NCBI GenBank assembly: GCA_019057475.1
Contig: DXJO01000050.1
Location: 1 to 19,972 of the forward strand
DNA: 19,972 nt
Source: Candidatus Thorarchaeota archaeon
GTDB lineage: Archaea; Asgardarchaeota; Thorarchaeia; Thorarchaeales; Thorarchaeaceae
Direction: 5' to 3'
Position numbers and translations under genes: made by a program. The first letter of the stretch is position 1, and each line of letters starts with the position of its first letter. The notes beneath the pieces were generated by a model. It saw only the letters and a list, made by a program, of their open reading frames with translations, did no database searches and was not told where the DNA came from. Shown here piece after piece: positions 375 through 17,767 of the stretch.

Positions 375-391
375 TTTTTATACTAGGTATA
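375..391 (+). promoter_or_regulatory. Putative archaeal TATA box with an overlapping palindrome, upstream of the four-gene operon
   Basis: TTTTTATA at 375-382; TATAC-tag-GTATA at 379-391; GGTGA Shine-Dalgarno-like motif at 439-443 before GTG 450. Confidence 0.4.
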
Positions 392-449: not shown

Positions 450-2129
450 GTGGGTGGTCAACCAACTCGTAAAACAACTGCACATATGAAGATAGCCCCA
501 GAAATTGTAAATCGACTAAGTATTGGATTATACCGCAATTTTGGTCTAACAGTAAAAGAGTTGGTCTCGAACGCCTATGATGCTGATGCCACAGAAGTGA
601 AAATTCGCCTAGACTTAAAAAAAAAACAGTTCATCATCCGTGACAATGGGTGTGGCATGACAGAAAAGGAGGTAAAGGAGGTTTATCTCTACGTGGGGGG
701 AGGGATAAAACCCGGAACTAAAACACCTCAAGGACGTATTCGAATCGGTCAATTTGGTATTGGAAACCTAGCTGTATTTCCATATTGCGAGGAAATCCAT
801 CTCATCACCAAGAAACAAGATACAAACATCCTTGTAGAAGCCAAGATAAATGCAAAGGAATTTACCAAGGAATTCATCAAAGGGAAAAAGACAAGCATAG
901 AAAGAATACCTATCCCCATTGAAACCTTTGAAACTGATCTCCCTAAAGATATGGGAGAAACGGTCATTTATCTCAATAAGATCAAACCTCATATCATAGA
1001 CGAGCTTCAACGTAAAGGAACGAGCAAGAAAAAATTAAGTATCGATCAGGAATCAGGTTACAAGAAATTCGAATGGACACTTCGCCAATATCTATCACTT
1101 CAGTATCCCAAATCCCATCGAGATCTTATAGATATGTTTAAAGCAAAAAAAACTGAATCGTTCAGGGTCTGGTTGGATGGAAAAGAATTATTTCGAAATG
1201 TGGTAAGAAACGCTAGGATACTAGATAGTGGTGAAGAAGCTTTCGGCAATGTTAGAGTAAAATATGCAATTATGAGTCCAATGAAACCTGTACGTCCTGA
1301 AGAGGCTCGAGGACTACAATTGCGGCTTCGAAATGTAGCGATAGGTTTTCCAACCGATTTCGATGTTATCAAACTGAAAGGGAGAGTATTGGGGAAATTA
1401 AACTACATAACTGGTGAAATTTACATACTCGAAGGATTGGAAAATGACTTACTAATCGACCGCGATCGCTTTTCTTATACGAAAGAATATGATGAACTTG
1501 CTCATTTCTTTAGAGAGAAACTAACTACCTGGAATAGCGAATTAGAGACCGTTGCAAGACATGATAAACAGATATACATCGCAATTTCCGGAATTCCTCT
1601 TGAACAAAAGGTTATCAAAGATATGAAAGATAAAGGGATTCTTAGTGTTGACAGGAGTCGGGTTCGGATACCTCCACCAAAAGAACCAAAAGGTGACAAG
1701 GGGATTTTTCCCAAACATGCAAGAACAATAGTAAGAGCTATAGAAGAAACAACTGAATACAAAACAGAACTGAAAACCGAAGAGATTAGCTCAACGACTC
1801 CTCCTATCCATATTGATAAGAGAGCCAAAGTGATAACTGTCTTTGTCAGTCCAGAAGAACCTGAAGAGACAATCACCGTTTTAGGTCAAGAATTTACTGT
1901 TTCTCATGATACTTGGGATATGGATAAAACACTTCAATCCATCTGTAAGATAGAGGGAAAGCGACGGGTTAGTTATAATACGGATCACCCGATATTCGAA
2001 TCTTCGCTAGATGAAGATCTTGTGAAATATCTTGCGCTTGGAGGTATGTTACTATTAAAAGAACATCCTCAAAATGAGAAGCTCTTTCAACTGTTTTACA
2101 AGTTAATCAACGATTTACCTAGGAGTTAG
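450..2129 (+). CDS. GHKL-superfamily (HATPase_c / MORC-like) ATPase
   Basis: GHKL motifs KELVSNAYDADA (ExxxNAxDA), IRDNGCGM (DNGxGM), IGQFGIG (GxFGxG) and GETV. C-terminal YNTDHP resembles the NxxHP motif of RM-associated prokaryotic MORC proteins. No C-terminal nuclease motif recognised. Confidence 0.9.
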   Translation: MGGQPTRKTTAHMKIAPEIVNRLSIGLYRNFGLTVKELVSNAYDADATEVKIRLDLKKKQFIIRDNGCGMTEKEVKEVYLYVGGGIKPGTKTPQGRIRIGQFGIGNLAVFPYCEEIHLITKKQDTNILVEAKINAKEFTKEFIKGKKTSIERIPIPIETFETDLPKDMGETVIYLNKIKPHIIDELQRKGTSKKKLSIDQESGYKKFEWTLRQYLSLQYPKSHRDLIDMFKAKKTESFRVWLDGKELFRNVVRNARILDSGEEAFGNVRVKYAIMSPMKPVRPEEARGLQLRLRNVAIGFPTDFDVIKLKGRVLGKLNYITGEIYILEGLENDLLIDRDRFSYTKEYDELAHFFREKLTTWNSELETVARHDKQIYIAISGIPLEQKVIKDMKDKGILSVDRSRVRIPPPKEPKGDKGIFPKHARTIVRAIEETTEYKTELKTEEISSTTPPIHIDKRAKVITVFVSPEEPEETITVLGQEFTVSHDTWDMDKTLQSICKIEGKRRVSYNTDHPIFESSLDEDLVKYLALGGMLLLKEHPQNEKLFQLFYKLINDLPRS

Positions 2130-2134
2130 GGTCT

Positions 2135-2881
2135 ATGACCTACTTGGAGACTCTTAAGGATCGGCTCATCAAGGAGCTTTGGGTTCCTAGCGTGAAGGAA
2201 GCTTCTGACTTTCTTCAACCTCGGTTTCGAAAGAATAAGCATCTGACTATTCTAACATTGACTAGTTCTGTAAACTCCCGAGAGATAGAGTTGTTAGTTG
2301 AGCAAAACTTGACAACGTTCAAAGAGATAACTGCATGGAGCTACAGCCATCATCAAATGCTGGCATTGAATACGGAGGGACCAATCCAGGTTATTGGAGG
2401 AAGACGGTTTGAAGATAGCTTGTTCCAACAGAACTATAATGATCTTTCTGACCCATTGTGTTATCATGTTGTTAATCTTGATTTCGTTTCCCAGAATCCA
2501 ATTGACTCAACTAGACCGAGATGCTTGATTCGTGAACTAATAACCATAGAAAACATAATTCGAGAATTTAGAGGCTGCCGTGATTTACGGGGCTTAGTTG
2601 TATTATACACAACCCGCTTAACAGAGGAAAAAATCGACATCGGAACACTGAAGAACGAATCTGATAACCTCCATAAGACTGGCTGGCGGGGGCTCAAATT
2701 AAACCAAATACCCAAAAGAAATACAAAAAAAGGATTAGACTATAATCTCTCTTGTATCAGGTTAATGTTGAAAGAGTTAGCTAAGAAATACGAATTGGTT
2801 ACTGCTTCTGAAGAGGATCTAGAATTGTCTCAGAATCAGAAAACAATAATCTATTCAAAAAGCATGTTCCTTAAAAAGTGA
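2135..2881 (+). CDS. Hypothetical protein, possible degenerate class I SAM-methyltransferase (Rossmann-like) fold
   Basis: 248-aa ORF 5 nt after the ATPase stop. Strand-like segments LTILTLTS, ITAWSYS, IQVIGG, YHVVNLDF, GLVVLYTT occur in the order expected for MTase beta1-beta5, but the Gly-rich motif I is absent. Confidence 0.55.
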   Translation: MTYLETLKDRLIKELWVPSVKEASDFLQPRFRKNKHLTILTLTSSVNSREIELLVEQNLTTFKEITAWSYSHHQMLALNTEGPIQVIGGRRFEDSLFQQNYNDLSDPLCYHVVNLDFVSQNPIDSTRPRCLIRELITIENIIREFRGCRDLRGLVVLYTTRLTEEKIDIGTLKNESDNLHKTGWRGLKLNQIPKRNTKKGLDYNLSCIRLMLKELAKKYELVTASEEDLELSQNQKTIIYSKSMFLKK

Positions 2882-3615
2882 TTAAAATGGAATTCGGCGA
2901 AGATTTCACTAAACAAATGGATAAAATATTTGATGATTGGAAAAACAATTGGAATCAGACCCTTTTATCGCACAAAACAGAGATTAATGAGCTTTCAGAG
3001 AAAATAAGTGTAATTGATGATTGGTCAAATTGTTTGCTGTCCGTTACAGAACTCAAGCGAATCCCTAATGCTAAGCAATTCATTAGCGAAATGTTCATAG
3101 ACATCTACACTTCTTTAGTTTTAGTGAGTTTGGCTCTCTACAAGTATGCAAATATGTGTCTACGAAGTTACCTTGAATCCACAATGCGCCTTATCTATTT
3201 CTCAGTCCATCCAATTGAGTATAGATGGTGGACCAATAAACTGTACGGACATACTCCTTTTAGAATGTACTTAGAATTTGTAACGAAATTAGAACGAATT
3301 AATAAAGTAGATTCAGAAAAAACCCCCCTGATTGCAGAGGTAAGAAATCTCTATAACGAATTATCATCTTATGTTCATTCTGAGGAACGAGCTTTCCAGA
3401 CTAAGGTAGGACTCTCTCCAAAATATAGTCTTGAGAACTTTAAAGGATGCGAAAAAACATTCAGAGAAACAATCAGCTACTCTAATATCTTGCTCTTGGG
3501 ATCATTTTATGAAAATTATCAACAGCTCTCCGCGGAGAGCCAAAAGAGGATTATAAGAATCGGAATTGACGAAGAAAAGCATGAGTTAATTGAATCGTTC
3601 GGAGACAAAGGCTAA
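2878..3615 (+). CDS. HEPN-like all-helical protein (putative RNase effector)
   Basis: Motifs YKYANMCLRSYLE and RNLYNELSSYVHS (AxxxLRxxxE ... YxxLSxxVH), typical of DUF5677-like HEPN-type families. GTGA overlap with the upstream gene; alternative ATG at 2887. Confidence 0.65.
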   Translation: MIKMEFGEDFTKQMDKIFDDWKNNWNQTLLSHKTEINELSEKISVIDDWSNCLLSVTELKRIPNAKQFISEMFIDIYTSLVLVSLALYKYANMCLRSYLESTMRLIYFSVHPIEYRWWTNKLYGHTPFRMYLEFVTKLERINKVDSEKTPLIAEVRNLYNELSSYVHSEERAFQTKVGLSPKYSLENFKGCEKTFRETISYSNILLLGSFYENYQQLSAESQKRIIRIGIDEEKHELIESFGDKG

Positions 3616-4688
3616 TGAATGGTGCTGATGATTTCCTTAGACAGATACCATCTACCCGATATCAAGGGAGCAAACGTCGAATTCTACCTTGGATTTACGA
3701 GAACATTAAAGACTTACCGTTTGAAACCGTGTTGGATGGGTTTGGGGGTACGGCAAGTGCTAGTTTCCTGTTTAAGTTGATGGGTAAAAAGGTCACCTTT
3801 AATGATGTTCTCTTATCAAATTACCAAACGGGTATTGCCTTAATTGAAAACAATGCTGTAACTCTTAATGAAGCGGATGTTGAGTTTCTTCTAAATGAAA
3901 ATGGATTTGAGTACCCTTCATTTATCCAAGACACATTCAAGGAGATTTACTATACAGATTTGGAAAATGAATGGTTGGACATCGCTTCACATAATATTCA
4001 CAAACTATCGCAGACATATGAGGGGCGTACGTTAAAAATCAAAAGAGCCTTGGCATATCATATCCTGTTCCAAGCATGCCTAACAAAACGTCCCTTCAAT
4101 CTATTTCATAGGAAAAATCTCTACTTACGACTGGCCAAGGTCAAAAGAAGTTTTGGTAATAAGGTAACATGGGAAAGAGAATTCCAGAAGCTATTCATGA
4201 AATTCAACAATGAGATTTCCAGTAAAATCTTCTCTAATAAACTAAGAAACAAGGCAACCTGTAAAGATATTCTAGAGGTGAAAACTAAGGGTTTTGATCT
4301 CGTCTATTTTGACCCCCCTTATGCTCGACCTAAAGACACCTCTCCCAAGGACTATTATTCTCTGTACCACTTCTTAGAAGGAATAGTTGACTATAAGAAC
4401 TGGTCGAAGCGGATTGATTGGACGATGAAAAATCGACGACTAATAAGGGAGAAGACAAAATGGGAGCAGGGAGAACTGATAGATAATTTTGATAGTTTAT
4501 TTAGGAGGTTTCAAGACTCAATAATTGTTGTATCATATGGAGAACCGGGGAATCCCTCGGTAGAGAGGATTAGAGAGTGCTTGCATCTATACAAGTCGGA
4601 TGTTGAAATATCGAGGAAAAGATACAAGTATAGATTAAATCAGGGAAACAACCAGAACCTCAACGAGGTCCTACTAATAGGTAAATAA
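3615..4688 (+). CDS. Alpha-class N6-adenine DNA methyltransferase (D12 / FokI-NlaIII-like family)
   Basis: Motif X RYQGSKRRIL, motif I VLDGFGGTAS, motif II FNDVL and motif IV LVYFDPPY, in alpha order. TAATG overlap with the upstream gene. Confidence 0.92.
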   Translation: MNGADDFLRQIPSTRYQGSKRRILPWIYENIKDLPFETVLDGFGGTASASFLFKLMGKKVTFNDVLLSNYQTGIALIENNAVTLNEADVEFLLNENGFEYPSFIQDTFKEIYYTDLENEWLDIASHNIHKLSQTYEGRTLKIKRALAYHILFQACLTKRPFNLFHRKNLYLRLAKVKRSFGNKVTWEREFQKLFMKFNNEISSKIFSNKLRNKATCKDILEVKTKGFDLVYFDPPYARPKDTSPKDYYSLYHFLEGIVDYKNWSKRIDWTMKNRRLIREKTKWEQGELIDNFDSLFRRFQDSIIVVSYGEPGNPSVERIRECLHLYKSDVEISRKRYKYRLNQGNNQNLNEVLLIGK

Positions 4689-4698
4689 CTCCGAGCAG

Positions 4699-4730
4699 AC
4701 CTCAGAGAATCTACGTGGAAAGTCTGAGGT
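4699..4730. terminator. Possible hairpin between convergent genes
   Basis: ACCTCAGA (4699-4706) and TCTGAGGT (4723-4730) form a perfect 8-bp inverted repeat in the 42-nt gap between convergent stop codons. Confidence 0.25.
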
Positions 4731-5759
4731 TCAAAGATCCGCCCTGCAGTTCTGACACTTGAGAAGACCCTGTTCTGTCTTTGCCCCGCAGAAGGGACAG
4801 ACGACCAGGACTCTTTCTGTGATTATTTTTTCTCGCGTTGGTGCTGGCTCAAGTGCCTCTGTTTCCTTTGGTGGAGGTGGTCTAGGCACCACTTCTTCAT
4901 AGGATGGAGGACCCTCTTTGCCTCGACGTGAAGCTGCCACTGCTATACCAACAATAAAAATAAGACCCACGAGACCCAGCAACAATGTCGTAGGCAAGTC
5001 CATGGTCTGATCAGTCTGCCCGCCTGTAGTCGTTGTGTCCGGAACGGCATTAGATACATAGACTGTCACCTCTTCGTAGTCACTATTTTCTACAGTGTCG
5101 CTAGCTGATATCTTAACAGTATGCGCACCATTCGAGTATTGTGTGGTATCCCAAGAATAGCTGAAAGCACTGTCGTATTCCGTATCCTTGAGATAACCAT
5201 CAATATAGAGACGAACCGTACCGATATCGAACGTCGCTTCAGAGATGGTGGCCGTGATCTCCTTGATGCCGGAGTAAGTGGCTCCTGCATCCAGGTTCAT
5301 TGTGATGGTTGGTGCTGTGTTGTCCCCATAGAAATCAAACGAAACTGTCTGTGTCGTGATAAGAGCATCCTTGTTGCAGAAGACAAAGTACCATGTACCC
5401 GCAACAGGAATCCTGAATTCGAAGGAACCATCTAGAACGTCTTCAAGTGTGCTGTATCGAGAGTACCCCAAACCAGCCTCGTAGTCATCAAAATTATCTT
5501 GATCCACAATGAAGAACGTGATATCCGAACCTGCCGTCACCTCAAACGAACCATATCTTCCCCTGTACTGCGACTGATATCCGTAGACACAATGGTATGA
5601 CAGTGGACCGATATTCCACTCATAATGTGTATGTGAATCATCAGCCAAAGACATCTCTACGCTCGGACCATGTTCTTCAGTAATCAGAGAGTCGCCCGAT
5701 AAGACGGCCATGGACATTATGAACAATGCCACATAGATCATCAATATCGACTGTTTCAT
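4731..5759 (-). CDS. Membrane-anchored surface protein: signal peptide, beta-rich domain, Ig-like domain, Thr-rich linker, TM helix, cytoplasmic zinc ribbon
   Basis: Hydrophobic N-terminus; Ig-like VRLYIDG...YSWDTTQYSNGAHTVKISASD; TTTTGG linker; TM LLLGLVGLIFIVGIAVAA followed by RRGK; Pro-rich stretch; CPFC...CQNC. Confidence 0.85.
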   Translation of the reverse strand: MKQSILMIYVALFIMSMAVLSGDSLITEEHGPSVEMSLADDSHTHYEWNIGPLSYHCVYGYQSQYRGRYGSFEVTAGSDITFFIVDQDNFDDYEAGLGYSRYSTLEDVLDGSFEFRIPVAGTWYFVFCNKDALITTQTVSFDFYGDNTAPTITMNLDAGATYSGIKEITATISEATFDIGTVRLYIDGYLKDTEYDSAFSYSWDTTQYSNGAHTVKISASDTVENSDYEEVTVYVSNAVPDTTTTGGQTDQTMDLPTTLLLGLVGLIFIVGIAVAASRRGKEGPPSYEEVVPRPPPPKETEALEPAPTREKIITERVLVVCPFCGAKTEQGLLKCQNCRADL

Positions 5760-5891
5760 TTCTCAAATTCCCTCAAAGGCATACGATGCTATGTATGATG
5801 TTGGATGCCCACTTATCTCATGTCTCTACGTACCGAACCGTCAGCATGAGGCTAAATAGCGCGGTGCGGGACTGCGGACTGATGGACTAAG

Positions 5892-6107
5892 TTGAGAACG
5901 AAACGATCGACCGTAGACTTCGAGGAGCTACGGCGCATTGCCAATCAGGTACGCATAGACACTCTGAGTGCTATTGATGAGCTTGTCATTCGAACGATGT
6001 CCGAAGGTAAGGATGTCGAAGCTCTCTCCAGGAGAGTGAAGAAGGCTCTTGAGATTGAGATGGACGAGGCTGCTGAGGTGCGCCTTCGCACCTGGTTCAT
6101 CCGATAG
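5892..6107 (+). CDS. Small hypothetical helical protein
   Basis: 71-aa ORF (TTG start), charged amphipathic composition, divergent from the membrane-protein gene. No family recognised. Confidence 0.45.
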   Translation: MRTKRSTVDFEELRRIANQVRIDTLSAIDELVIRTMSEGKDVEALSRRVKKALEIEMDEAAEVRLRTWFIR

Positions 6108-8757: not shown

Positions 8758-9332
8758 GGCCCTGTGGAATATATCACCTCTGAGCGCACTCCAAGTGGTT
8801 CAATCGTTTGATGTTGTGCAGGACCACTTTGATCAACAGCTCTCTTCGTCGTTCCATCCCTCCTCTGGAACTGAAACTTCCACCATGCCTCAATTTCATC
8901 ATGCTGAACACGGTCTCCACCAGACTCCTCTTTCCGTACCTGTGAACTCCCTTCCACTCCTCAGAGTCTGCTCGATACTCCCTCGTCAACCTCCCATATG
9001 CCCAATGACTCTTTGAGTTGATATGCGAACTACTCTTCGGTTCAATCGCGGGATATGCACCGATGTCAGCTATGAACTGGACATTCCTCCTTGAGATGTA
9101 TGCCTTGTCACCATAGACGGTTTCAAGACTACTCTTCGAAACCCTCCTGACCAGTGGGACCATGAACCTGGGGTCACCACTAGGCGTGGTTCTCACCCGA
9201 GTCGTATGGATCAACAGAGTGTCAGTGTCCACAGCGTTGTGGAGCGCGTGGAAACGCTGTCTCCGGGTCTTCTTGAACCTCACAGAGGTCCACTCTTCAC
9301 CAGTGGAGTGAGAAAACCCAGAGGAGTCCATG
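8758..9332 (-). mobile_element. IS5-family element, 5'-truncated (copy A), with right terminal inverted repeat
   Basis: DDE segments DSSGF, YGDKAY and KRSLVETVFSMMK. Terminus GGCCCTGTGGAATATATC from 8758 resembles the IS903 end GGCTTTGTTGAATAAATC. Homology to copy C begins only at about 9332. Confidence 0.88.
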
Positions 9333-9388
9333 GTCTCTTCGTAGCTCCGCATGCCAGTGTTCCAGAAAGCTTTTCCTCAAACAGTCTG

Positions 9389-12300
9389 TCAAACACAAAT
9401 CTCCTTGAACTTGGTCAGAATATCCTTTTTGATTTCTTCTTCAGTCTCTAGAGAGTCCAGTACTAGTTTGATTTCTTCTTCATCCAATTCGTATAATCTA
9501 AAGACAAGAGCATCTATCTGGGTTTCAAGTTCGGAGATTTCTCGCACTATGGGGTTAAGCTTATCAACTGAGGCCTGCCACTCCTTCTCAAGTCTTTCTT
9601 GGAAGTTCCGAGAAGAAGGCTTAACACCAACCTTTGAACTATTATGCTTAGCTATATTGAGAATAGATTTACTATCCTCGTCGAAACCATGCTTCCAATA
9701 TTTCTTGAGATATGATTTCCGAGAGAGATTTTCTACATCCACCTTCCACTCCCGAGATATCCACCTAAGGAAGGAGTTAGTTTCATCGTACAATTCACCT
9801 TGTTTAGAACTGATTTTCAAGTACAAGTTCTTCATTCTGATGGATATTTCTTTTGATGGATTTTCCTTTATCGGGAGATACTCTACGCTTTCAGGATAAA
9901 CATTCAAATCGTATCCGACGAGAGTTTTGAAATAGAAATTCATAATACTTGAATTCAAAATGCTGGCGATATATTCTAGGCTATAATCGGAGATGAACTC
10001 TACTTGTTCCTGAGATACCTCTATTTTCCGCTTGTTTAGGAAAGCGTCGGATTTCTGAATAAGCGCTGTTTTCTTTATACAATTACATATGGAGTCGTCC
10101 GTGTAGTAGTTGTCTGTATCAACTGCAGCTATCAAACCTTCGGGTCCTGTAACCTTAGATATCATCACCTTGTCATTTTCAAATAACTCTGGAAATGCAG
10201 GTCTATAGAGTTTATCATAATCATAAAGCAGCCATCTGCCTTTATAGTCGATATAGAAGCTGTGGAGGTCTCTTCCTTTCACCAATCTTTCGCACTTCTC
10301 ATCTACTTTTTCATCGAAATGAAATTCTGATATTGGGCTTCCTCTAGCTCCCCATGAACCAGCTAGTCCATACCCCAACCGAAAAGATGATGAATCTATT
10401 TTCCTCTTTAGTTTCAGAATGTCAGGGCCTAGTTCTAGTCGAAACATATGTTTGAACATATTAGCGAAGTCTTCAGGTGAGATTTTTTTCTTATCGCCAC
10501 TTATTCTTCTGATTATATTGGGATTTTCCCTTTGAGTTATCACTTCCATTTTTCCTTCCTGTGGACCTTTCTGTATTATTAGCACGATACTTCTAACTGC
10601 AGCATCTCCAAAAACGGGATAATCTGATAGGTCTACAATCTGGATTAGATTCTCATCTAATACTTTTTTTCTCAGCAGTTCAGAATAATCCTGATTCAAG
10701 AAGGGATAAGGGATGATGAAACTAAAAACCCCTCCATGTCTAAGCAAGTTCAACGATTTTTCAATAAAAGCTATATAGAGATCTACTCTTTTTTGAGTCG
10801 TCCTATAGTTTTCTGACAGAAGGTAATCTATAGAATCTTGAGGCAATCCTCCAACACTCACATAAGGCGGATTTCCTATAACTACATCAAATCCCGGATA
10901 GACTTTTTCTTCACCTTTATCAATGTCGAAAAACACTTCGGGAAATTCGAGTTTCCAGTGAAAGAACCTTTTCTTGTCTGAGAGGTTGCTCTCCATTTTC
11001 TCGGGGACGCTATTAGATGCTTTTCTTACCCAATCCTCTCGGGTGATTTCATTCCATTCTTCAACCCCTCCCCTAAATGCACTAAGTAGTTTTTCATATT
11101 GATTTCCAGAGAACTCGTTTCCAAAATAGTAACCAGTATATACATCAGAAAGAACATCGAATTTCTTCTTGAAGGGATGGGCTTCAAATTCTCGAAAGAG
11201 ATCCACCTGTTCCTTGATATCTTCTGGCCGCTCTTCGGTTACCTCTAACATTTCATTGTATACACCGAGTAATCGCATGATATCATCACGCACGCTTTTA
11301 CCGAAGAAATCTGATAGAACCAGTTGCTTGGATTTTTCCTCTTTTTTATGCTTTTTTCCCACTATTCTTGAATGTTTGTCCAATTTATGAATGTCTGCAC
11401 CTATTAGCGAATTCCCAGTCTTGAGGTGGTGGTCCAAAAATGAGAGTGGCTTGTCTTCAGCCATGGTGTTCAGCCAGAGTGAAACCTTGGCTAGCTCTGT
11501 TGCCAGTGGATTGACATCAACCCCGTATATGCAGTTTCTAGCGACCTTTCTTTTTGCCCAGTCGATGTCACGATCTTCCTCTTCTCCTTCTTCAATGTAC
11601 TTGACAAGTTTGTTCGCCAAGAAATCGGTTGCTTCAACGAGAAAGTGACCTGAACCCATAGCAGGATCCAAGATTTTCATATCTAGGATTGCTTTTCTTT
11701 TTTCTTCAATAGTTTCAGCTTCTTCGATTTTTTCCTCGACTACAGGACCAACCGAATTTTCAACTATATACTTGACAACGTAATGGGGCGTGTAGTAGCT
11801 GCCCGTCGCTTTTCTCTCCCCTTTGTTGGTGGTTAGATAGAGTTCTCCTTTTCGAACCCGTTTATCTTGGTCAAACTCTGAGAAGTCCTTCTTAACTTCA
11901 GAAGCTGAAACCCACTTGAGGGCCCCTTTTTTCTTAACTGCAACTCGGTCTTGATTGGCCAGCTTTGGCTTAAATTCCAGTAGTCCTTCGTATATACCCC
12001 CGAGGTGCCTTAGAGAGAGGTCTGAGTAGTCTATTCTACTACGGTCTTTATCCTGTTTAGATGGAATCCTTGCTAGCAAATCCACCACTCTTGCTATGTG
12101 TCCATCTTGGATTTTCTTATCCACAAGGAAGGGATGTTTTTCGTTGTCAAAGAGCCCGCCATTGTATGCTGGGATGTAGAATTCTTCCCTCGATATCCCC
12201 AGCTCTTCGCTACCTTCTCTGACGAGCCTAAAGATAGAAAACAGTCTATGGTTGTATAAGCCGCCTTTGGGATTGACCTTTAAATTATCTATATCGTTCA

Positions 12301-13246
12301 GTATGTCGTCAATCCATTTCAGAAAGCTGTACTCATTGGCATACCTTCGAGGCACCTTGGTGCCGAGCATTCCCTTGCTTTCGGCATAAAACAAGAACAG
12401 CAAACGATAAAGAAATATCAAGCTGTTTTCGTGAACCCTCCTAATGTTTTCTTCATTTTTCTCCAATTTATTAGTTCTCATGTTGAAGTAACCTTTAGCC
12501 ATCCAGAGAAGTGCTTTGTATACACTTCTCTCCAGATTTTCACCAATTTCCTCAGCGTATCTCAAGCTCTGGTCATACACCCTGTCGAGGAAGGATTCTC
12601 CGACCGGGATGAAGGCTTCTCTCCTGAAAAAAAAGTAGAAGTACTTGAAATCTGCGAAATCGTCCCTCTCTAAGATATCTATGAGATCAACCTCGTAATA
12701 AGTTCCGATTGGTTGTGTGCTTTCTTCAAAGTATAACCTCCATTTCCGTCCATTGGTAAGGACACCCCGCTTTGGCTGGGTTGTGCGTAAGTAGTAATCG
12801 ATTTGATAGCTGGGGTTACGATTTTCAAAAATGTCTTTTCCACCTAATTTCTTGTCCAGGGGCTTATCCCAAGCTTTGGCGTCCCCTACCGCGATGGCTC
12901 CCTTGTAGAAACCTAGAGAATCTTTATTCTTGAAGGCTTCATCAAGGTCTTCTTTGCATTCAAAAAAACCATAGTCCGGTCTATAAGCATTCTTCTTAAT
13001 TGTCGCCTGGACACCAAAGACATGACTCAGAGCTCTCAATACGGGCCTTATGAAATCTTCTTCCAATTGCGCCTCGTTGCCGGTGTAGGTTTGAATCCTG
13101 TCTTTCTTTTCACTATGAATCTTCTTTATCTGATCATATGCGGTTCTTGCTTTCTCCTCCTTGTTCCACTCTTCTGACTCCTTCAACCTTTTGTCAAGAT
13201 AATGGGTAGAGAATAGGTTCTTGTTGTTGTAAGGTACCAAGGTCAT
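9389..13246 (-). CDS. Type IIG restriction-modification enzyme (Eco57I-like REase-MTase-TRD fusion)
   Basis: N-terminal nuclease RPDYGFF...VGDAKAW and LTNGRKWRLY; gamma-class m6A MTase motifs GSYYTP, ILDPAMGSGHFL and VIGNPPY; C-terminal TaqI-C-like TRD (LVKGRDL, ILNSSIMNFYF, YLPI). Probable start is ATG 13246; the ORF track extends to TTG 13303. Confidence 0.93.
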   Translation of the reverse strand: MTLVPYNNKNLFSTHYLDKRLKESEEWNKEEKARTAYDQIKKIHSEKKDRIQTYTGNEAQLEEDFIRPVLRALSHVFGVQATIKKNAYRPDYGFFECKEDLDEAFKNKDSLGFYKGAIAVGDAKAWDKPLDKKLGGKDIFENRNPSYQIDYYLRTTQPKRGVLTNGRKWRLYFEESTQPIGTYYEVDLIDILERDDFADFKYFYFFFRREAFIPVGESFLDRVYDQSLRYAEEIGENLERSVYKALLWMAKGYFNMRTNKLEKNEENIRRVHENSLIFLYRLLFLFYAESKGMLGTKVPRRYANEYSFLKWIDDILNDIDNLKVNPKGGLYNHRLFSIFRLVREGSEELGISREEFYIPAYNGGLFDNEKHPFLVDKKIQDGHIARVVDLLARIPSKQDKDRSRIDYSDLSLRHLGGIYEGLLEFKPKLANQDRVAVKKKGALKWVSASEVKKDFSEFDQDKRVRKGELYLTTNKGERKATGSYYTPHYVVKYIVENSVGPVVEEKIEEAETIEEKRKAILDMKILDPAMGSGHFLVEATDFLANKLVKYIEEGEEEDRDIDWAKRKVARNCIYGVDVNPLATELAKVSLWLNTMAEDKPLSFLDHHLKTGNSLIGADIHKLDKHSRIVGKKHKKEEKSKQLVLSDFFGKSVRDDIMRLLGVYNEMLEVTEERPEDIKEQVDLFREFEAHPFKKKFDVLSDVYTGYYFGNEFSGNQYEKLLSAFRGGVEEWNEITREDWVRKASNSVPEKMESNLSDKKRFFHWKLEFPEVFFDIDKGEEKVYPGFDVVIGNPPYVSVGGLPQDSIDYLLSENYRTTQKRVDLYIAFIEKSLNLLRHGGVFSFIIPYPFLNQDYSELLRKKVLDENLIQIVDLSDYPVFGDAAVRSIVLIIQKGPQEGKMEVITQRENPNIIRRISGDKKKISPEDFANMFKHMFRLELGPDILKLKRKIDSSSFRLGYGLAGSWGARGSPISEFHFDEKVDEKCERLVKGRDLHSFYIDYKGRWLLYDYDKLYRPAFPELFENDKVMISKVTGPEGLIAAVDTDNYYTDDSICNCIKKTALIQKSDAFLNKRKIEVSQEQVEFISDYSLEYIASILNSSIMNFYFKTLVGYDLNVYPESVEYLPIKENPSKEISIRMKNLYLKISSKQGELYDETNSFLRWISREWKVDVENLSRKSYLKKYWKHGFDEDSKSILNIAKHNSSKVGVKPSSRNFQERLEKEWQASVDKLNPIVREISELETQIDALVFRLYELDEEEIKLVLDSLETEEEIKKDILTKFKEICV

Positions 13247-13304
13247 CTGCACAATCAACCCTGTATGAACACTCGGGGCAGGATTATTTAGGTTTCTGTT
13301 CAAA

Positions 13305-14351: not shown

Positions 14352-15329
14352 TCAACTGATCCGCAAAAGGTTGCGGAGAGTTCTTGACGCATGACATAAG
14401 CCAAGGGCATCGAGCTCCTCAATCTCTGGACCAAGACGCTCCTTCACGATGGAAGTGCCTAATATCCAGTCCTTCATGATGTTCAGTTCAATGACCACTG
14501 CAATGTCTACCACTTCCAGTTGAAGAGCCATATAGTCTTTGAGCTCCTCTTGGATGACCTTCACGTCCATGAATGGCTTTTCCTGCAATACTCGACGCCC
14601 TGAGTCTGTCTTGTCAGGAAAGACATGAACATTCTGGGACAGGATGTCATATATGCGGTCGTTAATCTCGATGAAATTGGGAATGTCGATGATTTCCAAG
14701 TCAACAAGCTGCCGAACCATTGCCCTAAAGGATGGCATGAATATGTATTTGCGTGCAAACTCGCGGTCTGCGAATATCGGGTCAAGCTTGTCGTATACTG
14801 CAACTGATGTCTTCTTCATGGCGTGTTCAATGGATGGTTCTAGCTCTTTCAGCCTGTCAATCCATTCCGCGAGAGTGATTTTATCGCTCTTCAAAGGAGA
14901 GAGAGACTGTACTCGTCCGGTCTTGGAAACTGATACCAGACACACAGATTCTCGGCTACGTCTTCCCAACCAAGTCAATCTGGCTCTTAATCGATCATCT
15001 GAGAGGCTTTGAGACAGGGCACCTCGAACAACAAGTTCATACACGTTTCGCAGCAGAGAGTAAGCGGGATTATAGTGTCCTGTGAGTGCATCTAGGTGTG
15101 AGCGGTGTGTTACCTCAAATACATCCCATGCAAATGTGAGAAAAGCAGACTTCTCATGAAAGCTTACATCTGGTGGAAGACATTGCGGTTGCAGGTACAG
15201 AAACTTGTGAATCGCATCATGTGCCTTTTGCACCATCTCAAACTCAAGGCTCAGAGACTTGATAATATTGCCTTGATAGAACTCTTGAACTATGTGTTCA
15301 AATGCTTTTCCAACCATATCTTCAGACAT
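14352..15329 (-). CDS. HEPN-like protein (same motif class as 2878..3615)
   Basis: GHYNPAYSLLRNVYE and IYDILSQNVH; 325-aa, mostly helical ORF. Confidence 0.65.
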   Translation of the reverse strand: MSEDMVGKAFEHIVQEFYQGNIIKSLSLEFEMVQKAHDAIHKFLYLQPQCLPPDVSFHEKSAFLTFAWDVFEVTHRSHLDALTGHYNPAYSLLRNVYELVVRGALSQSLSDDRLRARLTWLGRRSRESVCLVSVSKTGRVQSLSPLKSDKITLAEWIDRLKELEPSIEHAMKKTSVAVYDKLDPIFADREFARKYIFMPSFRAMVRQLVDLEIIDIPNFIEINDRIYDILSQNVHVFPDKTDSGRRVLQEKPFMDVKVIQEELKDYMALQLEVVDIAVVIELNIMKDWILGTSIVKERLGPEIEELDALGLCHASRTLRNLLRIS

Positions 15330-16659: not shown

Positions 16660-17298
16660 ATGAAATCAATTCATTTCGGCATTCGTGTGCCAACTGAGCT
16701 ACATAATCTCCTGCAAATGGAGAGTAAAGCAATAGAGAAGGACATGTCTAATTATATACGCAGAGGCATCCTCAAAGAACTGGCGCTTCTGAGCTATCTC
16801 GCAGACGAGCAGAAGAAAGCTCTCAGTGTCATAGCTGGCTGCATACAATGGACTGTAATGTATCCAGACAGTTTCCCAAGAAACTCGGTACAAATTCAAA
16901 ATAAAATGATAGAGTATGGGTTTGCAGGGGTTTGGAATCAGTTATCGACCGCAATCGAGAATTTTCTCTCAACTAACTACCAAGCTTTCTGCAATGCTCT
17001 TCGAAATGCACTTACCCGATTTATTAGAGAGTTGGCTAAGAAATACAATGTAGATGAGAAACAATTCGGAACCCAAAGAATGAACCTTGTCAAGATTGAT
17101 TTCATTGATAAGAATTTCAGCGACTCGATAAGCAAATACTATGGACATCTTTCGAAATTCAGCAAAGCGCTTGATGCTCCATCAGTCCTAGAATGCCAAT
17201 ATCTGCTTGATATGGCATTGAGTGTTTTTGGATTTCTTGTGAGAAGGATGGATGAATTCAAAATAGAGGAAAAAACCACAGAGGAATCAAAATCCTAG
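16660..17298 (+). CDS. Ribbon-helix-helix domain fused to a HEPN/Abi_C-like helical domain
   Basis: MKSIHFGIRVPTELHNLLQMESKAIEKDMSNYIRRGILKEL is a typical RHH pattern. C-terminal FCNALRNAL...YYGHLSKFSK echoes the HEPN-like motifs but lacks the final His. ATG 16660 is preferred over TTG 16609. Confidence 0.65.
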   Translation: MKSIHFGIRVPTELHNLLQMESKAIEKDMSNYIRRGILKELALLSYLADEQKKALSVIAGCIQWTVMYPDSFPRNSVQIQNKMIEYGFAGVWNQLSTAIENFLSTNYQAFCNALRNALTRFIRELAKKYNVDEKQFGTQRMNLVKIDFIDKNFSDSISKYYGHLSKFSKALDAPSVLECQYLLDMALSVFGFLVRRMDEFKIEEKTTEESKS

Positions 17299-17308
17299 AG
17301 ACTCGCCG

Positions 17309-17767
17309 CCTCCTTACCAAGGGGACCATGAACCTTGGATCACCTCCGGGCTTGCCTCTGACCCGAATCGCATGGACCAACAGAGTGTCAGTATCCACAG
17401 CGTTGTGCAGCGCGTGGAAACGCCTTCTCCGGGTCTTCTTGAACCTCACAGAGAACCACTCTCCACCGGTGGAGTGAGAAAACCCTGTCGAGTCCACGGC
17501 CAGGTTCTCTGGAGGAGGTCTCTTCCTGGCAAGGAGTTCGTACATTCTGTGAAGGAGTTGAGTGTCGATTCTCCGCAGGGCCTTGTAGAGAGAGGAGTAG
17601 CTTAGCGTTCTATCAAGGCCAAGACGATGTGACAGATATGGATTGAAGTCTACAAAAGCGACGAAGTCACGATAGCTGAGTCCCATGTCGAACTTGAGTC
17701 CAAGAAGGACGAAGAGAGCGGACGAGAAGCCATCTACTGACGAGCGTATGGATTGGAGATGGATCAC
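17309..17767 (-). mobile_element. IS5-family transposase, N-terminal/middle remnant (copy C)
   Basis: LGLKFDMGLSYRDF...LAVDSTGFSHSTGGEWFSVRFKKTRRRRFHALHNAVDTDTLL...DPRFMVPLVRR. Homology to copy A ends at about 17309. No terminal repeat seen. Confidence 0.85.

What the first reader, a model, noticed from the sequence alone, without database searches (positions are those of the whole stretch)
450..4688. Candidate undescribed defence system: MORC-like GHKL ATPase + MTase-fold protein + HEPN-like effector + m6A DNA methyltransferase
Seen: four co-directional genes with a 5-nt gap, a GTGA overlap and a TAATG overlap, visibly more AT-rich than the next block and located among RM and nuclease genes. 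Known: prokaryotic MORC/GHKL ATPases occur in restriction-modification operons, usually with a restriction endonuclease, Z1 domain or helicase. HEPN RNases such as PrrC and RloC act as abortive back-ups to RM. Inference: no restriction endonuclease is recognisable here and a HEPN-like protein takes its place. The MTase may mark self DNA while the ATPase clamp and ORF2 sense unmodified DNA or an anti-RM protein and trigger RNA cleavage. I do not recognise this four-gene architecture as a named system.
Basis: partly seen in the sequence, partly recalled or inferred. Interest (0 to 1): 0.82.

Follow-up and report, generated by a model that had tools for sequence, protein, structure and literature searches.

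The report
Methylase-linked GHKL ATPase defence cassette
Four tightly packed genes (an ATPase, a methylase-shaped protein without cofactor motifs, a HEPN-shaped helical protein and a DNA methylase) form a mobile cassette that recurs in about 45 archaeal and bacterial loci and looks like an uncatalogued, untested restriction-modification-type immune system with no recognisable DNA-cutting enzyme.

Summary
Four co-directional genes (450-4688) are joined by a 5-nt gap, a GTGA overlap and a TAATG overlap, at 35-40% GC against 46-51% next door.

- **Parts:** ORF1 is a GHKL ATPase with intact ATP motifs. ORF2 has a class-I methyltransferase fold (Z 13.6) but no SAM-binding motifs. ORF3 has a HEPN-like fold (top seven structural hits are HEPN, Z 8.3-9.5) and an invariant His at the canonical catalytic position, but no Rx4-6H motif. 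ORF4 is an intact D12 m6A methyltransferase.
- **Conservation:** in 43 related loci, ORF2 is present in 36/36, the ATPase in 30/30 and a DNA methyltransferase in 31/31 where the contig has room. Two of these carry an unrelated SPPF-type enzyme instead.
- **Second copy:** the same genome holds another copy, 32-43% identical, on contig C22.
- **Distribution:** very patchy, 1 of 86 other genomes in the order.
- **Catalogues:** no PADLOC, Pfam or NCBIfam model covers ORF2 or ORF3, and no paper found describes the architecture.
- **Precedent:** paraMORC-HEPN fusions in RM contexts were predicted in 2013, and this scan has already noted the same cassette in two other archaeal genomes.

It is most likely a methylation-gated defence module. 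The effector chemistry (RNA or DNA) and the role of ORF1's C-terminal 370 residues are unresolved.

The parts
377..382 (+). TTTATA, a possible archaeal TATA-like box 68 nt upstream of the ORF1 start. Read from the sequence only; weak.
   Evidence: Sequence. The sigma-70 scan found no more sites than in shuffles. Not tested further.
450..2129 (+). ORF1, 559 aa: GHKL (Bergerat-fold) ATPase at about residues 20-180, a strongly conserved middle block (about 240-345, with K308 a candidate transducer lysine) and an unassigned C-terminal region
   Evidence: PF13589 2.3e-17. Motifs E37xxxN41, D65xGxG69 and G100xxGxG105 are invariant in 18 homologues. The N-terminal 170 aa resemble the BbrUII/HgiDII REase head, 93 bits against a cut-off of 550. 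Residues 190-559 have no Pfam, PDB-sequence or atlas family.
2135..2881 (+). ORF2, 248 aa: class-I Rossmann methyltransferase fold without SAM-binding motifs. It has a conserved pocket: E50, W68, N114-L-D-F117, Q120, R127, E134, Y158-T-T160.
   Evidence: AF2 pLDDT 88.3. Foldseek PDB gives 169 hits at E<=1e-3, and every listed row but one is a methyltransferase. In VIA wide the best Z is 13.6, and 49 of the 50 rows are methyltransferase-fold proteins (the other is a probable spermidine synthase). Column counts in 61 homologues are. There are no Pfam, PADLOC, NCBIfam or PHROG hits for the window copy and no Pfam hit for the 61 relatives.
2878..3615 (+). ORF3, 245 aa: all-helical protein with a HEPN-like four-helix core (about 60-213), related to DUF5677. 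Invariant R96 and H167; near-invariant E100, H111, E114 and S163.
   Evidence: AF2 pLDDT 91.1. VIA wide: six of the top seven are HEPN domains by title or by PMC3710099, and the seventh (3mfn) is of unknown function; Z 8.3-9.5 with 112-131 residues aligned. Foldseek PDB found nothing significant. 22 of 80 relatives hit PF18928 DUF5677. The topology mapping onto the HEPN definition uses.
3615..4688 (+). ORF4, 357 aa: D12-class (Dam-like) N6-adenine DNA methyltransferase with intact catalytic motifs
   Evidence: PF02086 4.5e-15. PADLOC MTase_II PDLC03261 1.4e-51. Motif I DGFGG, motif II ND and motif IV DPPY are present.

Best explanation
This is one copy of a conserved, horizontally mobile four-gene module that works like a restriction-modification system. 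Shown: the four genes travel together as a unit, and a DNA amino-methyltransferase is always attached. Inferred: the methyltransferase marks host DNA. The GHKL ATPase, the SAM-less methyltransferase-fold protein ORF2 and the HEPN-fold protein ORF3 are translationally coupled and co-evolve, and they form the 'restriction' side. The ATPase dimer probably clamps DNA and uses ATP to switch the complex. ORF3 is the best candidate for the effector nuclease. It keeps the catalytic His at the canonical HEPN position and supplies an Arg/Glu pair from helix 2 in place of the motif Arg. By analogy with other HEPN proteins its target would be RNA, giving abortive infection, but DNA or a non-catalytic role is not excluded.
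For: - **Gene order and coupling:**
- **Co-occurrence:** in 43 loci from archaea and bacteria, ORF2 36/36, GHKL 30/30 and D12 methyltransferase 29/31 where the contig has room. The two exceptions carry an unrelated PF01555 methyltransferase with motif IV SPPF in the same slot, so a DNA methyltransferase is present in 31/31.
- **Methyltransferase position:** it varies (26 co-directional, 3 convergent, 1 divergent), as expected for an independently expressed modification gene.
- **Second copy:** a diverged full copy sits in the same genome at 43/33/32/42% identity.
- **Co-evolution:** pairwise-identity matrices correlate (ORF2-ORF3 rho 0.76, GHKL-ORF3 0.62, with the methyltransferase 0.37-0.45; Mantel p<=0.02). 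ORF2 and ORF3 evolve faster (median 33% and 41%) than the methyltransferase (58%).
- **Patchy distribution:** 1 of 86 other genomes in the order and 0 of 6 in the genus, yet the cassette spans Aenigmatarchaeota, Methanophagales, Nitrososphaerota, Pseudomonadota and Desulfobacteraceae.
- **Neighbours:** they vary and often include defence genes.
- **Folds:**
- **Active-site topology:** H167 lies just after helix 3, R96/E100 in helix 2 and H111 at the start of the insert. This matches the positions set out in PMC3710099 section 7.
- **Intact motifs:** the window copy has all ATPase and methyltransferase catalytic motifs.
Against: - Nothing has been tested experimentally, and defence is inferred from context alone.
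- ORF3 lacks the defining Rx4-6H motif. The positions 5 to 7 residues before the His carry no conserved Arg.
- ORF3 has no sequence-profile link to any HEPN family.
- Its structural Z values (8.3-9.5) fall in the range where helical bundles can match by arrangement alone (note).
- ORF1 residues 190-559 are unassigned and could hide a DNase.
- The adenine-reader idea for ORF2 is weakened because ORF2 keeps NLDF in loci whose methyltransferase has the m4C-type SPPF signature.
- The C22 paralogue's methyltransferase reads DPPS, which is hard to square with strict methylation-based self-protection.
- ORF3-like proteins also occur with ParA-type ATPases and no methyltransferase in the operon, so the domain is not tied to methylation.
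Confidence: 0.55

Rival explanations
1. It is an ordinary ATP-dependent (paraMORC-type) restriction-modification system that cuts DNA. The endonuclease is cryptic and lies in the unassigned C-terminal region of the GHKL protein, or in ORF2 or ORF3 acting as a DNase. The other small proteins serve as specificity or assembly subunits.
For: Iyer et al. 2008 describe paraMORC families with C-terminal RE-fold or otherwise uncharacterised putative nuclease extensions in RM operons. ORF1's N-terminus resembles the head of the BbrUII/HgiDII restriction enzymes and PADLOC REase_II models. ORF1 residues 190-559 contain about 30 invariant polar residues of unknown role. The methyltransferase is more conserved than the putative restriction genes, as in classical RM.
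Against: No nuclease family or motif was detected in ORF1 by Pfam, NCBIfam, PADLOC, PDB-sequence or atlas searches. The only H...N..H-like triad (H468, N510, H513) is incomplete in the window copy. ORF2 is a methyltransferase fold and ORF3 a HEPN-like fold, and neither is a known DNase fold.
Confidence: 0.27
2. ORF2 is a real enzyme with an unusual cofactor or substrate, for instance one that modifies DNA, RNA or ORF3 itself. ORF3 is then a non-catalytic nucleic-acid-binding or regulatory HEPN-like subunit. The cassette would be a multi-step modification or toxin-control module rather than a restriction system with ORF3 as effector.
For: ORF2 has many invariant polar residues at the C-terminal edge of the sheet, where Rossmann enzymes bind ligands. 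Its nearest structural neighbours are tRNA/rRNA-modifying enzymes. HEPN domains that lose Rx4-6H are often non-catalytic (PMC3710099). HEPN toxins controlled by covalent modification from a partner enzyme are among the structural matches (7ae2 and 8xdj).
Against: Neither the glycine-rich loop nor the acidic residue after strand 2 is present in any of the 61 ORF2 homologues. ORF3 keeps an invariant His, Arg and Glu, which argues for catalysis. The constant attachment of a DNA methyltransferase, including by non-orthologous displacement, fits self-marking better.
Confidence: 0.12
3. It is not a defence system but a methyl-directed DNA repair or epigenetic-regulation module, by analogy with MutL plus Dam.
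For: A GHKL ATPase together with a Dam-like methyltransferase recalls methyl-directed mismatch repair. Iyer et al. note occasional recruitment of MORC-like proteins to non-RM roles.
Against: The distribution is extremely patchy (1 of 86 in the order). There are two diverged copies in one genome and cross-domain transfer, the GC is atypically low, and the cassette sits in variable and often defence-rich neighbourhoods. No MutS- or MutH-like partner is present.
Confidence: 0.05

Closest known systems
paraMORC / MORC GHKL ATPases in restriction-modification operons (Iyer, Abhiman & Aravind 2008, PMC2292703)
   Same: A GHKL ATPase with intact ATP motifs is encoded with a DNA methyltransferase in a mobile, patchily distributed operon. 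The proposed role is an ATP-driven clamp or switch on the restriction side.
   Different: The described families pair mostly with cytosine methylases, SF-II helicases and RE-fold, HNH or Vsr nucleases. Here there is no helicase and no recognisable nuclease. The methylase is m6A (D12), and the partners are a SAM-less methyltransferase-fold protein and a DUF5677-like HEPN-fold protein. None of paraMORC1-5 as described matches.
paraMORC-Ymh(HEPN) fusions in RM neighbourhoods, and PrrC/RloC (Anantharaman et al. 2013, PMC3710099)
   Same: An ATPase is combined with a HEPN-type domain in a methylation/restriction context. It was proposed to be an RNA-cleaving arm linked to RM.
   Different: Here the HEPN-like protein is separate, not fused. 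It belongs to a different family (related to DUF5677, not Ymh/PF09509) and lacks Rx4-6H. An extra methyltransferase-fold subunit is obligatory. No Type I RM partner is present, whereas PrrC and RloC use ABC-type ATPases.
BbrUII/HgiDII family Type II restriction enzymes (NCBIfam NF050001)
   Same: The N-terminal GHKL head is similar: residues 13-182 match profile positions 3-171 at E 1.7e-26.
   Different: The score is 93 bits against a family cut-off of 550. The remaining ~490 positions of the 659-position profile do not match. It is not a member.
PaREP1 and AF0298-type HEPN-T domains (PDB 2q00/2jpu, 2hsb)
   Same: They are the best structural matches. PaREP1 keeps the motif His but not the Arg, with another conserved basic residue elsewhere. 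AF0298 has an alternative His in the helix-2/helix-3 insert, as ORF3 does with H111.
   Different: No sequence similarity is detectable. Those proteins pair with minimal nucleotidyltransferases or stand alone, not with GHKL ATPases and methylases.
Tiamat (TmtA) and Mza (MzaB) defence ATPases in PADLOC
   Same: There are weak N-terminal GHKL matches (TmtA 9.9e-9, MzaB 8.7e-6).
   Different: The matches cover only about 110 residues of the ATPase head. Tiamat's PD-(D/E)xK NOV_C domain is absent, and so are the other Mza genes.

Membership tests
GHKL (Bergerat-fold) ATPase superfamily (ORF1) | Motif I ExxxN, motif II DxGxG, motif III GxxGxG | tested here: met
   E37/N41, D65-G67-G69 and G100-G103-G105 are invariant in 18 homologues. 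PF13589 scores 63.8 bits against a cut-off of 25.
MORC family sensu stricto (ORF1) | GHKL plus an S5-fold domain with the MORC-specific motif | tested here: inconclusive
   No Pfam S5 or Morc6_S5 hit. The atlas gave Morc6_S5 only at 0.77. A conserved middle block with K308 is compatible with a transducer domain, but no structural model could be made.
BbrUII/HgiDII restriction enzyme family NF050001 (ORF1) | Whole-protein score at or above the curated cut-off (550 bits) over the 659-position profile | tested here: not met
   93 bits, with only profile positions 3-171 matched.
Class-I SAM-dependent methyltransferases (ORF2) | Seven-stranded Rossmann-like methyltransferase fold | tested here: met
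   Foldseek E 3.4e-6 and 169 hits at E<=1e-3. In VIA the best Z is 13.6 with 169 residues aligned, and 49 of 50 rows are methyltransferase-fold proteins.
Class-I SAM-dependent methyltransferases (ORF2) | Glycine-rich motif I after strand 1 and an acidic residue after strand 2 (SAM binding) | tested here: not met
   After strand 1 the sequence is L-T-L-T-[NSD]-D-x-N, with no Gly in any of the 61 homologues. After strand 2 it is W68-[T/N/S].
HEPN superfamily (ORF3) | [quoted passage not shown] | tested here: met
   The model (pLDDT 91) has helices 65-84, 88-110, an insert at 112-147, then 151-164 and 185-209. Six of the top seven VIA matches are HEPN domains by title or by PMC3710099 (the seventh, 3mfn, is of unknown function), Z 8.3-9.5, covering 112-131 of 122-151 target residues. 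Caveat: these Z values are in the range where helical bundles can match by arrangement alone.
HEPN superfamily (ORF3) | Rx4-6H motif at the end of helix 3 | tested here: not met
   H167 is invariant (80/80) at the canonical position, but the residues 5 to 7 before it are not Arg: L162, and position 160 is K or R in only 29/80. The nearest basic residue is K/R156 (43/80), 11 residues upstream. Invariant R96 lies in helix 2.
HEPN superfamily (ORF3) | Sequence-profile match to a HEPN family | tested here: not met
   No Pfam HEPN family for the window copy or its 80 relatives. The profile found nothing in PDB sequences. hhalign against a genuine RiboL-PSP HEPN protein gave probability 0.3%.
DUF5677 (PF18928) (ORF3) | Pfam profile match | tested here: inconclusive
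   The window copy does not match, but 22 of 80 family members do (best E 6.2e-9). It is a related but separate subfamily.
D12-class N6-adenine DNA methyltransferases (ORF4) | Pfam PF02086 above its cut-off, motif I FxGxG and motif IV DPPY | tested here: met
   56.5 bits against a cut-off of 22. DGFGG and DPPY are present.
Type II restriction-modification system | A recognisable restriction endonuclease alongside the methyltransferase | tested here: inconclusive
   No nuclease was found in ORF1-3 by any sequence or fold search. ORF1 residues 190-559 were not modelled.
Catalogued defence systems (PADLOC-DB v2.0.0, 2023) | Matches to a system's signature proteins | tested here: not met
   ORF2 and ORF3 have no hits, in either the window copy or the 80 ORF3 relatives. 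ORF1 has only head-domain hits. ORF4 hits generic MTase_II. Newer catalogues (current DefenseFinder) could not be run.

The most novel reading that the evidence does not exclude
This is a methylation-gated RNA-cleaving immune system. A GHKL ATPase clamp and a cofactor-less methyltransferase-fold 'reader' inspect DNA for missing amino-methylation and then switch on a non-canonical HEPN nuclease, so a restriction-modification-style self/non-self test ends in abortive infection rather than DNA cleavage. A corollary is that the DUF5677-like HEPN variant (His retained, Arg supplied from helix 2) is a portable effector also driven by ParA-type ATPases.
Probability: 0.3. Interest if true: 0.85.

Novelty: new variant of a known kind. 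Interest (0 to 1): 0.62.

Why it matters
If it is active, this cassette would add an archaea-rich member to the methylation-dependent defence systems. It has three features of wider interest. First, a methyltransferase fold stripped of its cofactor site may have been re-used as a sensor or specificity subunit. Second, it carries a HEPN-like effector with a rearranged active site. Third, it is a GHKL/MORC-type switch that works without a helicase or a classical nuclease, which bears on how eukaryotic MORC and sacsin-type ATPases arose from prokaryotic conflict systems. The host is said by other notes of this scan to be an Asgard archaeon (not checked here), where defence systems are little studied. 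It also shows that a gene set recurring in about 45 loci is still missing from the catalogue and profile libraries I could run (PADLOC-DB v2.0.0, Pfam, NCBIfam, PHROGs).

Tried and rejected
- **ORF2 and ORF3 in family libraries:** Pfam, PADLOC, NCBIfam and PHROGs found nothing for the window copies. Scans of the relatives added only DUF5677 for ORF3 (Pfam and PADLOC on 80 relatives; Pfam on 61 ORF2 relatives).
- **ORF3 structure and profiles:** Foldseek against PDB found nothing significant. The ORF3 profile against PDB sequences found nothing. hhalign of ORF3 against a RiboL-PSP HEPN protein was negative.
- **ORF2 relationships:** hhalign of ORF2 against the cassette's own D12 methyltransferase, and against the ~185-aa partner of the ParA-type operons, was negative in both cases. 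ORF2 is therefore not a detectable degenerate copy of the methylase, and ORF2+ORF3 is not a portable pair.
- **ORF1 C-terminus:** searched alone against PDB sequences and Pfam, it gave nothing, and the atlas gave no family. I considered an HNH-like H468...N510..H513 triad and dropped it, because the window copy lacks H468.
- **Atlas lead:** PP_RS20740 for ORF2 is only a hypothetical protein.
- **Mobile-element collections:** no relatives on viral contigs, annotated plasmids or phages. BFVD gave only generic methyltransferase folds.
- **Search pattern:** the first metagenome scan failed because the ORF3 alignment was too divergent. It worked with a tighter alignment.
- **Boundaries and promoter:** no flanking repeats mark an insertion boundary. 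The sigma-70 promoter scan was no better than shuffles.
- **Strict adenine-reader model for ORF2:** weakened by the SPPF-type methylase in L008/L009.

Full report
**Observation**

The window is a whole 19,972-bp contig (C32) of a 3.34-Mb, 56-contig genome. Four + strand ORFs lie at 450-2129 (559 aa), 2135-2881 (248 aa), 2878-3615 (245 aa) and 3615-4688 (357 aa). GC is 0.35-0.40 over the cassette and 0.46-0.51 in the next 3 kb. A TTTATA at 377-382 could be an archaeal TATA box; this rests on reading the sequence only. The neighbours are a Big_7/zinc-ribbon protein and a PAS histidine kinase. A Type IIG RM / DrmMI-like gene (9389-13303, minus strand) and DDE transposase fragments lie further on. 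'Among RM and nuclease genes' is therefore only partly right.

**The four proteins**

- **ORF1** is a GHKL ATPase (PF13589, 2.3e-17). ExxxN, DxGxG and GxxGxG are invariant in 18 homologues.
  - Its first 170 residues resemble the head of the BbrUII/HgiDII restriction enzymes, but at 93 bits against a cut-off of 550.
  - Residues 190-559 match nothing in Pfam, PDB sequences or the atlas. They hold about 30 invariant polar residues, including K308, a candidate transducer lysine.
- **ORF2** matches no profile library.
  - With a 61-sequence alignment, AlphaFold gave pLDDT 88.
  - Foldseek (169 hits at E<=1e-3) and the Foldseek-independent VIA search (best Z 13.6) both place it in the class-I methyltransferase fold. 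49 of the 50 VIA rows are methyltransferase-fold proteins, many of them tRNA/rRNA enzymes.
  - All 61 homologues lack the glycine-rich loop and the acidic residue after strand 2. They keep an invariant pocket, including N114-L-D-F117 in the slot where amino-methyltransferases have (D/N)PP(Y/F).
- **ORF3** also has no profile hits, but 22 of 80 relatives match DUF5677.
  - Its model (pLDDT 91) is all-helical. Foldseek found nothing significant.
  - In VIA, six of the top seven matches are HEPN domains by title or by the survey, at Z 8.3-9.5. Roquin, AbiA, LsoA, HEPN-MNT toxins and Csm6 rank lower.
- **ORF4** is a D12 m6A methyltransferase with DGFGG, ND and DPPY.

**Is ORF3 a HEPN protein?**

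[quoted passage not shown] It places Rx4-6H at the end of helix 3, an accessory acidic residue in helix 2, and an alternative His in the insert of AF0298-type proteins. ORF3 maps onto this as follows:

- Helices 65-84 and 88-110 form the first hairpin, 112-147 is the insert, and helices 151-164 and 185-209 form the second hairpin.
- Invariant H167 lies just after helix 3.
- Invariant R96 and E100 lie in helix 2.
- H111 and E114 lie at the start of the insert.

The motif Arg is absent. This resembles the PaREP1 family (2q00/2jpu, both among my hits), which keeps the His but not the Arg. No sequence profile links ORF3 to HEPN. The call is therefore a HEPN-like fold with a plausible but non-canonical active site, not an established RNase.

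**Conservation**

- ORF2 and ORF3 each have only two close relatives by word search.
- The same genome carries a second full cassette on contig C22, at 43, 33, 32 and 42% identity. Its methyltransferase is transcribed divergently.
- An alignment search raised the ORF2 family to 61 members. An exhaustive HMMER search found 144 ORF3-family representatives.
- Six species genomes (Aenigmatarchaeota, Methanophagales, Nitrososphaerota, an unclassified archaeon, Pseudomonadota, Desulfobacteraceae) and 37 metagenome contigs carry the cassette in the same order.
- Where the contig has room, ORF2 is present in 36/36, the ATPase in 30/30 and the D12 methylase in 29/31.
- The two exceptions, L008 and L009 (near-identical loci), have an unrelated PF01555 methylase with an SPPF motif in that slot. 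This non-orthologous displacement argues that DNA amino-methylation itself is required.
- Identity matrices of the four proteins correlate, most tightly among ORF1-3. ORF2 and ORF3 diverge faster than the methylase.
- Within the host's order only 1 of 86 other genomes has ORF2, and none of six in the genus.
- Flanking genes differ between loci and often include defence genes, such as a Tiamat-like protein in L005.

**A wider ORF3 family**

The other 42 metagenome loci encode more distant ORF3-like proteins that keep the same invariant residues. These sit behind a ParA/MinD-type ATPase and a ~185-aa unknown protein, with no GHKL, ORF2 or methylase. The ~185-aa protein is not related to ORF2. 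The ORF3 domain is thus a module that pairs with different ATPases.

**Mechanism**

Shown: the parts, their conservation as a unit and the obligatory methylase. Inferred:

- The methylase marks self DNA.
- The ATPase, ORF2 and ORF3 form the restriction side.
- ORF2 is the likeliest reader or specificity subunit, and ORF3 the likeliest effector.

The main rival is a cryptic DNase in ORF1's C-terminus, which I could not model. Two facts do not fit well. The C22 methylase reads DPPS (codon AGT, so not a one-base error) although its partners are intact. ORF2 also keeps NLDF beside an m4C-type methylase.

**Comparison with what is known**

GHKL ATPases in RM operons were described in 2008 (PMC2292703). 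paraMORC-HEPN fusions were proposed as PrrC/RloC analogues in 2013 (PMC3710099). Neither paper, the 2026 Tiamat preprint nor my other literature searches describe this four-gene set. PADLOC-DB v2.0.0 does not cover it.

This scan had already noted the same cassette in a Woesearchaeota genome and in a DPANN genome (e1-1199862 and e1-2774664). Those notes reached similar conclusions, and I re-derived them independently here.

- the paralogous second copy;
- the methylase displacement;
- the ParA-linked sister family;
- the residue-level HEPN mapping.

**Verdict**

The cassette is real, conserved, mobile, uncatalogued in the libraries I could run, and untested. It is best classed as a new variant of the paraMORC-type RM-like systems. 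Interest is 0.62.

Noticed in passing
G000:C22, locus L003:9049-13656: A second, diverged copy of the whole cassette sits in the same genome: ATPase 43%, ORF2 33%, ORF3 32% and methylase 42% identical. The methylase is transcribed divergently upstream of the ATPase. Its motif IV reads DPPS (codon AGT) instead of DPPY, while the other three proteins keep all family-invariant residues.
   Followed up: partly
window 14352-15329 (-): This 325-aa ORF is a distant ORF3-like protein. It has LLRNVYE (R-x3-E) and IYDILSQNVH (Y-x-x-L-S-x-x-V-H), with hhalign probability 49% and E 1.7e-4. It lies upstream, on the same strand, of the Type IIG RM / DrmMI-like gene at 9389-13303.
   Followed up: partly
L047-L088 (e.g. 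L062:5333-7513, L060:5293-7540): A conserved three-gene operon occurs in 42 metagenome loci: a ParA/MinD-type AAA_31 ATPase (~295 aa), an unknown ~185-aa protein and an ORF3-like protein (~240 aa) with the same invariant Arg, Glu, His and Ser. It may be a separate uncharacterised system.
   Followed up: partly
L008:9168-10172 and the matching gene in L009: In two Nitrososphaerota-type loci an unrelated PF01555 methyltransferase with motif IV SPPF (the signature usually linked to N4-cytosine methylation) replaces the D12 methylase.
   Followed up: yes
L003:6232-8174 and 4315-5989: Next to the second cassette lie a GmrSD_N (DUF262) gene followed by a HEPN_RiboL-PSP gene, and an N6_N4 DNA methylase with an unassigned 284-aa partner. 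Contig C22 carries a defence island.
   Followed up: no
L005:11028-15461; L016:1883-3712: A 1477-aa Tiamat-like protein (SACS + NOV_C) follows the cassette directly in a Pseudomonadota MAG. In L016 a second, unrelated HATPase_c_3 protein sits just upstream of the cassette.
   Followed up: no
window 9389-13303 (-); 8774-9352 (-); 17258-17767 (-): A 1304-aa Type IIG RM enzyme (Eco57I, N6_Mtase and TaqI_C domains; best PADLOC hit DrmMI, 3.8e-105) lies in an AT-rich stretch. There are also two DDE_Tnp_1 transposase fragments.
   Followed up: no
L066:2016-2798, L067:4281-5063, L076:1-633: In three ParA-type loci an in-frame stop splits the ORF3-like gene into two adjacent ORFs (HMM positions 3-133 and 137-233). 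It could be a pseudogene or a recoded stop.
   Followed up: no
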